From Octopus vulgaris (lineage: Eukaryota): 64,000 nucleotides of DNA. The notes under the pieces are model-generated. The model was given only the letters and a program-made list of their open reading frames with translations. It ran no database searches and was not told the origin of the DNA. The stretch spans positions 45,446,001-45,510,000 of the forward strand of contig OX597817.1 of the NCBI GenBank assembly GCA_951406725.2, in the 5' to 3' direction. This document shows, piece by piece, positions 11,043 through 11,232 of the stretch; the stretch's first letter is position 1; each line of letters begins with the position of its first letter. Both the position numbers and the translations under genes were made by a program.

Positions 11043-11232
11043 GGCGATTATTCCCTCCTTCTTCCCTTCTTTGGATCTTTCCTTTTCCTATGTTTCTGAC
11101 GAAGAGCTCCGTTCGAAACGTTAAACCCTCCTTCTTTCCTTCTTTCCTGAGCGTCCAATAATACTATACTTGTTCCACGTCCTAGCGTTGTTGTGATTTC
11201 TCTTTCTGTTTTCATGTTTGGATTAACTATAA
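11043..11232 (+). mobile_element. Short hammerhead-bearing element (Penelope pLTR-like) inserted in (TA)n
   Basis: Flanked by TA arrays; its 3' part recurs inverted at 60373-60454; contains the hammerhead fold listed next. Confidence 0.75.
11092..11126 (+). ncRNA. Minimal type-I hammerhead ribozyme motif, canonical core
   Basis: GTTT-CTGACGA-A-GAGC(tcc)GTTC-GAAA-C-GTT-AAAC: stem I GTTT/AAAC, stem II GAGC/GTTC, palindromic ACGT stem III, GUU triplet. Confidence 0.8.

What the first reader, a model, noticed from the sequence alone, without database searches (positions are those of the whole stretch)
11043..11232. TA-embedded short element with an intact minimal type-I hammerhead
Seen: GTTT-CTGACGA-A-GAGC-TCC-GTTC-GAAA-C-GTT-AAAC with every core base canonical, an extra A after A9, and a loopless palindromic stem III (ACGT). 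It shares the downstream ttcctgagcgt motif with the CUGUNGA subfamily, yet stem I differs on both arms (GTTT/AAAC versus CTTT/AAAG), which is a compensatory change. Established: such minimal PLE hammerheads are thought to cleave as dimers. Inference: this is the best candidate for a live ribozyme in the window, possibly pairing in trans with transcripts from other copies.
Basis: partly seen in the sequence, partly recalled or inferred. Interest (0 to 1): 0.72.

Follow-up and report, generated by a model that had tools for sequence, protein, structure and literature searches.

The report
Misfolded hammerhead in Penelope-type transposon stub
This is one truncated copy of a very abundant animal repeat, likely the tail of a Penelope-type jumping gene, carrying a known kind of minimal self-cutting RNA motif; one rare base change is predicted to fold this copy into a hairpin that cannot cut, so it is ordinary.

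Summary
The motif is real: 11092-11126 is the only strict minimal type-I hammerhead in the window (0 of 300 shuffles give one), and it matches the published minimal hammerheads of Penelope-like elements (PLEs) feature for feature. The element belongs to a family of thousands of copies (rough estimate) seen under four organism labels. It ends at a fixed point in (TA)n and has lost its 5' part.

The 'live ribozyme' reading is not supported. This copy has T at 11112 where 97.5-99.8% of family depth has C. That change is predicted to zip the catalytic core into a hairpin (stem II probability 0.001-0.005, against 0.94). Pairing in trans is predicted to cost 13-17 kcal/mol. The copy differs from the family majority by about 3-4% and shares its site across two organism labels.

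No coding parent could be found (no genome held), so PLE tail versus non-coding retrozyme-like family stays open. A sister lineage carries C at core position 4. The scan has reported such elements many times before, in this genome and others. Verdict: new member of a known kind, low interest.

The parts
11043..11231 (+). 5'-truncated copy of a high-copy hammerhead-bearing repeat (likely a PLE 3' terminal repeat)
   Evidence: 6,573, 3,484 and 10,594 contigs laid in three runs at 90% likeness; 15,522, 6,770, 4,013 and 141 in four runs at 85%. Loose ends show a shared 5' extension and (TA)n after 11228-11231.
11029..11042 (.). Left part of the (TA)n target
   Evidence: Sequence; no target-site duplication can be read in the microsatellite
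11234..11605 (.). Right (TA)n array, 186.5 units by TRF including its degenerate end
11092..11126 (+). Minimal type-I hammerhead motif (4-bp stem I, extra A, 4-bp stem II, loopless ACGU stem III, GUU triplet)
   Evidence: layout matches PMC4209133 supplement
11096..11102 (+). Core CUGACGA (C3-A9); position 11097 is C in a sister lineage
   Evidence: 11097 T>C in 28-52% of depth at 85% likeness, not listed (under 5%) at 90% likeness in other runs
11104..11114 (+). Stem II and loop, with the rare T at 11112
   Evidence: Family has C at 11112 in 97.5-99.8% of depth in 7 of 7 runs that cover it
11092..11119 (+). Predicted competing hairpin (11092-11096 with 11115-11119; 11098-11101 with 11110-11113) that buries the core
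   Evidence: Pair probabilities 0.92-1.0; minimum-energy and centroid folds
11118..11121 (+). Palindrome ACGU; stem III can form only between two copies
   Evidence: Sequence; double-hammerhead model evaluated
11122..11123 (+). Predicted cut site (after GUU), intact in the genomic copy
   Evidence: Hammerhead numbering; not tested
11053..11072 (+). Pyrimidine tract, 19/20 identical to 11126-11145
   Evidence: 1 of 5000 mononucleotide shuffles reach it; unexplained
11144..11153 (+). TTCCTGAGCG motif shared with the U6 sister lineage
60373..60455 (-). Shorter 5'-truncated copy of the same family, lacking the hammerhead and ending at the same 3' point, next to (TA)n
   Evidence: 84% over 89 nt, E 1e-20
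29781..29997 (-). Sister-lineage copy (CUGUUGA core, A6U) with intact stems; approximate ends
47480..47592 (+). Decayed sister-lineage copy; approximate ends
25568..25734 (+). Sister-lineage copy with altered core; approximate ends
47720..47845 (-). Decayed sister-lineage copy; approximate ends

Best explanation
It is a 5'-truncated copy of a very abundant hammerhead-bearing repeat sitting in a (TA)n microsatellite, likely the 3' terminal repeat of a protein-coding Penelope-like retrotransposon, and its hammerhead is predicted to be misfolded and unable to cut. Inferred history: the parent's GIY-YIG endonuclease nicked (TA)n. Its reverse transcriptase started at a fixed site about 109 nt downstream of the ribozyme's cut site and stopped after about 190 nt. 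The copy spans the cut site, so the template RNA was uncut or re-joined there. In the parent's partial-tandem RNA two such motifs would form a double hammerhead, with stems I and III formed between the copies and a cut after GUU, probably slowly and with the element's protein helping. After insertion, or in a small sub-lineage, C11112 became T; this is predicted to let A6 pair with it and lock the core in a hairpin.
For: Shown: motif and non-chance status. Very high-copy family under four organism labels. Summed contig depth is 1.3-2.0 x 10^5 times the single-copy flank, or 4,100-6,400 times after dividing by 31 for overlapping words (rough). Fixed 3' end into (TA)n and a shared 5' extension. 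A second, shorter copy with the same 3' end. C at 11112 in 97.5-99.8% of depth. Predicted: P(stem II) 0.005 or less against 0.94, stable from 15 to 37 C, and the family base gives the highest stem II probability of all 105 single changes. Literature: the same C-G-U-U loopless stem III occurs in 12 of 44 listed motifs, 7 of them marked PLE-linked (PMC4209133 supplement). Hammerheads start about 100-210 nt before the 3' end of most coding Hydra PLEs, and most of these insert in (TA)n (PMC8557442 supplement). Uncut RNA is the main insertion substrate and the ribozyme needs protein in the Anolis PLE (PMC11167929).
Against: No link to an RT/GIY-YIG ORF was shown. No genome is held. None of 188 window ORFs hit a GIY-YIG family; the one Pfam hit was a weak RVT_1 match 31 kb away. 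The family is not among the PLE consensus sequences of PMC8557442 by short-motif searches. This copy has no inverted partner or tail. Folding energies ignore tertiary contacts and protein chaperoning, and even the family-majority double hammerhead is 9.7 kcal/mol above two monomers, so the model may understate active folds in general. One raw DNA run labelled organism A showed no reads on the element or its flank, which is unexplained.
Confidence: 0.6

Rival explanations
1. The family is non-coding: a retrozyme-like or non-autonomous PLE derivative copied by a PLE enzyme, perhaps from a circular RNA. This copy is a truncated monomer and is still predicted to be misfolded.
For: Very high copy number with no ORF seen. 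Retrozymes are argued to derive from pLTRs (10.64898/2026.07.22.740005, abstract and introduction). An intact cut site fits a re-joined circle.
Against: The copy is solo, and no strong head-to-tail joint appears: the joints listed from the 3' end have depth under 100 against about 10^6 and fall on TA. Described animal retrozymes carry canonical hammerheads, while minimal ones are tied to PLEs (PMC7229834 passages). Only 30 letters of the 5' extension were visible, so a longer monomer is not excluded.
Confidence: 0.25
2. One reading: this copy is a live ribozyme that cuts after GUU when it pairs in trans with a transcript of another copy.
For: All core bases are canonical, and it is the only such motif in the window. 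G-U pairs occur in stem II of published motifs. Thousands of possible partners exist. Family sequence is present in runs guessed to be RNA (guess only).
Against: The core and the substrate arm are predicted to be buried. Double hammerheads with itself, with a family-majority copy or with the 29911 copy score -0.9, -3.3 and -2.1 kcal/mol against -17.6, -16.5 and -17.3 for separate monomers. Only 4-bp helices would hold the strands. The copy differs from the majority at 4-5 of about 138 sites.
Confidence: 0.08
3. The repeat is a SINE or LINE tail moved by a non-PLE enzyme, and the hammerhead is a passenger.
For: Fixed 3' end and variable 5' end also fit LINE-type copying. The window holds fragments that look like other LINEs (naming recalled).
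Against: No tRNA-like head in the window (the head may have been lost) and no poly(A) tail. The motif layout is the PLE one.
Confidence: 0.06
4. The motif is a chance match in AT-rich DNA.
For: Rfam gives no hammerhead hit at the gathering threshold or at E up to 10. The 190-nt fold is no better than shuffles (z -0.76).
Against: 0 of 300 shuffles give a strict hit. The motif is kept across the family and across sister lineages, with 94% of cells paired against 18-53% for slid partners.
Confidence: 0.01

Closest known systems
Minimal hammerheads (min-HHR) in pLTRs of metazoan Penelope-like elements (Cervera and de la Pena 2014, PMC4209133)
   Same: CUGANGA-H core with an extra base, G10.1-C11.1, palindromic 15.2-16.2 without loop 3, short helix I, U-rich flank, mostly solo copies in large families. 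The exact C-G-U-U ending occurs in 12 of 44 listed motifs, including two from the limpet Lottia.
   Different: Stem II is short (4 bp with a 3-nt loop, against 7-8 bp in Schistosoma; 3-4 bp examples exist). No octopus entry in the one supplement file that could be searched. This copy carries a predicted misfolding change.
Anolis Poseidon PLE (PAc), Frangieh et al. 2024, PMC11167929
   Same: Hammerhead near the fixed start of reverse transcription (about 85-92 nt downstream of the cut there, 109 nt here); AT-rich target; uncut RNA is copied.
   Different: PAc is a full coding element with shown, protein-assisted cleavage; here no ORF link and no assay.
Hydra-clade PLEs including Hydra-1_Obim (Craig et al. 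2021, PMC8557442)
   Same: (TA)n target; hammerhead near the 3' end.
   Different: 26 of 26 Hydra rows in File S2 have a 3-4 bp stem III with a 1-3 nt loop; this motif is loopless. The Hydra-1_oBim motif is unrelated in sequence.
Animal non-LTR retrozymes (PMC7229834; bioRxiv 10.64898/2026.07.22.740005)
   Same: Short, non-coding, type-I hammerhead, low GC, probably moved by PLE enzymes.
   Different: Retrozymes are tandem arrays with canonical hammerheads and circular RNAs; this is a solo truncated copy with a minimal motif.

Membership tests
Minimal PLE hammerhead (min-HHR) | Core CUGANGA, GAAA and NUH triplet | tested here: met
Minimal PLE hammerhead (min-HHR) | Extra nucleotide between 9 and 10.1; G10.1-C11.1 pair | tested here: met
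   A11103; G11104-C11114; features listed
Minimal PLE hammerhead (min-HHR) | Palindromic 15.2-16.2, no or tiny loop 3 | tested here: met
   ACGU at 11118-11121
Minimal PLE hammerhead (min-HHR) | Short helix I and U-rich 5' flank | tested here: met
   4 bp; consensus line
Minimal PLE hammerhead (min-HHR) | Large multi-copy family in the genome | tested here: met
Minimal PLE hammerhead (min-HHR) | Compensatory changes in the stems | tested here: inconclusive
   5 sequences; 2 covarying pairs; 23-140 of 500 shuffles reach the measures; reads cannot be phased
Minimal PLE hammerhead (min-HHR) | Self-cleavage as a dimer or with protein | not testable with these tools
   Predicted unfavourable for this copy
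Endonuclease-bearing PLE (terminal repeat) | Family continues 5' into an RT + GIY-YIG ORF | not testable with these tools
   No genome; only 30 loose letters shown; no GIY-YIG hit in 188 window ORFs
Endonuclease-bearing PLE (terminal repeat) | Fixed 3' end with variable 5' truncation | tested here: met
Endonuclease-bearing PLE (terminal repeat) | Insertion into (TA)n or AT-rich DNA | tested here: met
   3' loose ends
Endonuclease-bearing PLE (terminal repeat) | Inverted 5' partner or 30-40 nt tail (optional feature) | tested here: not met
   None at this locus
Hydra-clade PLE | Hammerhead stem III of 3-4 bp with a 1-3 nt loop | tested here: not met
   26 of 26 Hydra rows have it; this motif does not
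Non-LTR retrozyme | Head-to-tail tandem monomers | tested here: inconclusive
   Solo here; no strong joint inside the 190 nt; a longer monomer is not excluded
Non-LTR retrozyme | Canonical type-I hammerhead with loop-loop contact | tested here: not met
   4-bp stem I, loopless stem III, no Rfam hit
Non-LTR retrozyme | Circular RNA | not testable with these tools
   No run on record as RNA among holders

The most novel reading that the evidence does not exclude
The family is a genome-wide, protein-assisted trans-cleaving network. Thousands of copies read passively inside host transcripts pair through the ACGU palindrome and cut one another when a PLE protein is present. Sister lineages with U4, C4 and U6 cores are differently tuned versions that all amplified, and misfolding changes like the one in this copy are how host RNAs escape being cut.
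Probability: 0.04. Interest if true: 0.65.

Novelty: new member of a known kind. Interest (0 to 1): 0.16.

Why it matters
This locus matters little: it is one aging copy among thousands and is predicted not to cut. It shows that a canonical core list does not make a live ribozyme; the family base and the fold must be checked. At family level there is a modest opening. Closely related lineages with a canonical core, with C4 and with U6 all reached high copy number. Published U4C and A6C changes lower activity (PMC3088659 passages), so comparing the lineages would test the open question of whether PLEs need to cut their RNA. Three paper searches found no study of octopus hammerheads beyond one Hydra entry in PMC8557442; subscription papers, Repbase and Dfam were not searchable.

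Tried and rejected
- Rfam: 0 hits at the gathering threshold for the window; 5 hits at E up to 10 around the element, all microRNA families on TA repeats or flank.
- Pattern scans for the motif: 0 hits in viral, metagenome and prokaryote collections, as expected for an animal repeat.
- Whole genome: not held.
- Pfam on 188 of 322 non-repetitive ORFs (those of 58 aa or more): 1 weak RVT_1 hit, no GIY-YIG.
- The family's 5' extension is not elsewhere in the window: 1 match with 2 mismatches, 0.5 expected by chance.
- No tRNA. The bacterial promoter scan found nothing and does not apply.
- Expression: no holder is on record as RNA. Runs X7 and X19 are only guessed to be RNA, and contig depth cannot show cutting, strand or level, so I drew nothing from their depth or from the uncovered flank in X7.
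- Run X22 (raw DNA, same label as X1, about 3% read) had no reads on the element or its unique flank: unexplained, and not used.
- My first dimer energy was an impossible pseudoknot and was redone.
Among contigs at least 90% like this copy, C4 is under 5%, so U4 is inherited in this lineage.
- CpG decay hits G8 (1.3-4.1%) and G12 (2.0-15.2%) about as much as the one non-ribozyme CpG (0-12.3%). This fits neutral decay but has a single control.
- Hydra membership was rejected.
- Lunse et al. (RNA Biol 14:1499) is not held; I saw only its title and a review's summary, and it may already list this family's variants.
- File 1 of the PMC4209133 supplements could not be searched. The supplement of PMC13282606 was listed but not read, and its repeat library is off-line; either may hold this family.
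- Sequence look-ups in earlier findings gave 0, as did.

Full report
Observation. It holds a type-I hammerhead layout at 11092-11126: a 4-bp stem I, CUGACGA, one extra A, a 4-bp stem II with a 3-nt loop, GAAA, a loopless ACGU palindrome and a GUU triplet. The element sits between (TA)n tracts. The core heptamer alone means nothing (26 found, 20.4 expected). The full descriptor gives 1 hit in the window and none in 300 shuffles; relaxing position 6 adds the copy at 29911 and gives hits in 2 of 300 shuffles. A wider descriptor gives 3 hits against 0.08 expected. Rfam does not recognise the motif.

Source. The window is animal DNA rich in microsatellites and repeats. Earlier scan notes on the same genome call it octopus, which matches my recall of such repeat landscapes; I did not test it. 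No genome is held.

The family. Of 24 listed runs, 22 hold the stretch or part of it, 13 hold half or more of the sampled words, across 10 studies and four organism labels; none is on record as RNA. Thousands of distinct contigs lie on the element, while the flank is covered at depth about 12 (X1) and 32 (X4). The summed-depth ratio is 1.3-2.0 x 10^5, or 4,100-6,400 after dividing by 31 for overlapping words. The tool warns that this is no copy number, so I say only 'thousands, roughly'. In all seven contig runs the loose ends show the same sequence continuing 5' of 11043 by at least 24 nt, and in the six runs with a listed loose end at 11231, (TA)n follows. The element is therefore a 5'-truncated copy with a fixed 3' end. 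A second copy at 60373-60455 is cut shorter and ends at the same point. One contig in X1 (organism A) and one in X4 (organism B) bridge the left junction, with 41 and 36 letters on the element side, so the insertion is shared between two labels. The eighth run, X22, showed nothing on the element or its flank; I cannot explain that and did not use it.

This copy against its family. At 11112 the family has C in 97.5-99.8% of depth in 7 of 7 runs, which gives a perfect stem II; this copy has T. It also differs from the majority at 11059, 11184 and 11196, and at the polymorphic 11169. That is 4-5 of about 138 sites, or 3-4% (2 rows of that table were not shown), above the 2% cut-off used for recent insertions in PMC13282606 (parts 1-2 of 3 read). 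The T lets A6 (11099) pair with 11112 and completes a hairpin through both halves of the core. Pair probabilities are 0.92-1.0 in four contexts from 35 to 283 nt, and stem II is 0.005 or less, also at 15-25 C. With the family base, stem II is 0.94 in 35 nt and 0.54 in 190 nt. Of all 105 single changes, the one back to the family base gives the highest stem II probability. These are predictions from a nearest-neighbour model.

Dimers. In a double hammerhead of loopless motifs, stems I and III both form between strands. That form scores -0.9 (copy with itself), -3.3 (with a majority copy) and -2.1 kcal/mol (with the 29911 copy), against -17.6, -16.5 and -17.3 for two folded monomers. The majority pair (-5.7 against -15.4) and the 29911 pair (-10.9 against -17.0) are also unfavourable, so the model penalises the active fold in general; this copy is the worst case. 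Published assays point the same way. A Schistosoma minimal motif did not cut alone and cut little as a dimer or trimer (PMC4209133, parts 1-2 of 4 read). The Anolis motif cut only with the element's protein, was not needed for insertion in vitro, and left no read ends in RNA-seq (PMC11167929, parts 1-2 of 4 read). GUU is a usable triplet but not one of the two fastest (PMC3138052 passages).

Sister lineages. Four window copies share stem II, stem III and the downstream motif but have U at position 6. The outer stem I pair reads G-C, C-G, C-G and A-U, with one mismatch; with five sequences this is weak evidence (23-140 of 500 shuffles; 94% paired against 18-53% for slid partners). At 85% likeness a further lineage appears with C at core position 4, in 28-52% of depth in four runs. 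It is under 5% at 90% likeness in three other runs, so it probably differs at more sites; runs and thresholds are confounded. U4C and A6C lower activity in vitro (PMC3088659 passages). CpG decay touches G8 and G12 about as much as the one outside CpG, which fits neutral decay after insertion (single control).

Mechanism. Shown: the motif, the family, the fixed 3' end in (TA)n, 5' truncation, an intact cut site and the rare stem II base. Inferred: a PLE endonuclease nicked (TA)n; reverse transcription began about 109 nt downstream of the cut site on an uncut or re-joined RNA and stopped early; in the parent RNA the motif would work as a slow, protein-assisted dimer. Predicted: this copy is misfolded. 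Not shown: a coding parent. No GIY-YIG relic is among 188 window ORFs, and collection scans were empty. A non-coding retrozyme-like parent remains the main rival (0.25), although the copy is solo, no strong head-to-tail joint appears, and described retrozymes carry canonical motifs (PMC7229834 passages; bioRxiv 10.64898/2026.07.22.740005, part 1 of 5).

Comparison with known systems. The motif meets every sequence feature of the minimal PLE hammerhead. The same C-G-U-U ending occurs in 12 of the 44 motifs visible in part 2 of the PMC4209133 supplement, 7 of them PLE-linked. It fails the Hydra pattern: 26 of 26 rows have a looped stem III, and the octopus Hydra-1 motif is different (PMC8557442, passages and supplement). 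Inverted partners and tails are optional PLE features (PMC3846280 passages) and are absent here. Lunse et al. on dimer cleavage was not held; I saw its title and a summary in PMC6765202. Searches for octopus or cephalopod hammerheads returned only PMC8557442 as relevant.

Earlier scan notes. Many notes on this and other genomes report octopus PLE-type hammerheads, including A6U and U4C families. They are unchecked and I do not count them as support; they gave me the Hydra lead and the C4-decay idea, both tested above.

Verdict. Observation confirmed; interpretation partly supported; new member of a known kind; interest 0.16.

Noticed in passing
window 11097 (family level): A sister lineage with C at hammerhead position 4 makes up 28-52% of depth at 85% likeness in four runs; T>C at 11085 rises with it in part.
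   Followed up: partly
window 11122 (family level): The base before the cut site is C or A in about 10-12% of depth in run X2 and C in 10% in X19, so lineages with GUC or GUA triplets may exist.
   Followed up: no
window 25595-25630 (+): Sister-lineage copy whose core can be read as U3-A8 without the extra base, with stems intact; either a known covariation or decay.
   Followed up: partly
window 11053-11072 and 11126-11145: A 19/20 direct repeat of pyrimidines flanks the hammerhead (1 of 5000 mononucleotide shuffles); the family majority differs at 11059, so the match is better in this copy than in the family.
   Followed up: partly
window 11225-11236: A 6-nt tandem duplication at the 3' junction that the family's loose ends do not show; possibly slippage.
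   Followed up: no
window 18940-19100 (+): Diverged relative with the GCTCGAAACGTA half and the family tail, but an 11-bp inverted repeat where the first half of the hammerhead should be.
   Followed up: no
window 29994-30022: A 14-nt unit repeated twice at the 5' junction of the 29911 copy begins, on the + strand, with the same 7 letters as the finding's 5' junction; probably chance.
   Followed up: no
window 25083-25374: A 292-nt near-perfect palindrome (96% self-match); possibly a fold-back insertion.
   Followed up: no
window 1239-1472, 9880-10114, 15731-15970, 20112-20494, 43416-43637, 45095-45332, 63663-63901: An abundant repeat of about 235 nt, 80-93% identical between copies; SINE-like by recall.
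   Followed up: no
window 5186-5590: GC-rich stretch that looks like a decayed large-subunit rRNA fragment (recalled; Rfam gave no hit at the gathering threshold).
   Followed up: no
window 30750-31470, 42639-43031, 53541-53888, 25840-25975, 37676-38140: ORF fragments resembling LINE reverse transcriptases, restriction-like endonucleases and a mariner transposase (names recalled; only 42639 had a weak RVT_1 hit).
   Followed up: partly
run X22 on window 10530-11236: Raw DNA run with the same organism label as X1 has no reads on the element or its unique flank.
   Followed up: no
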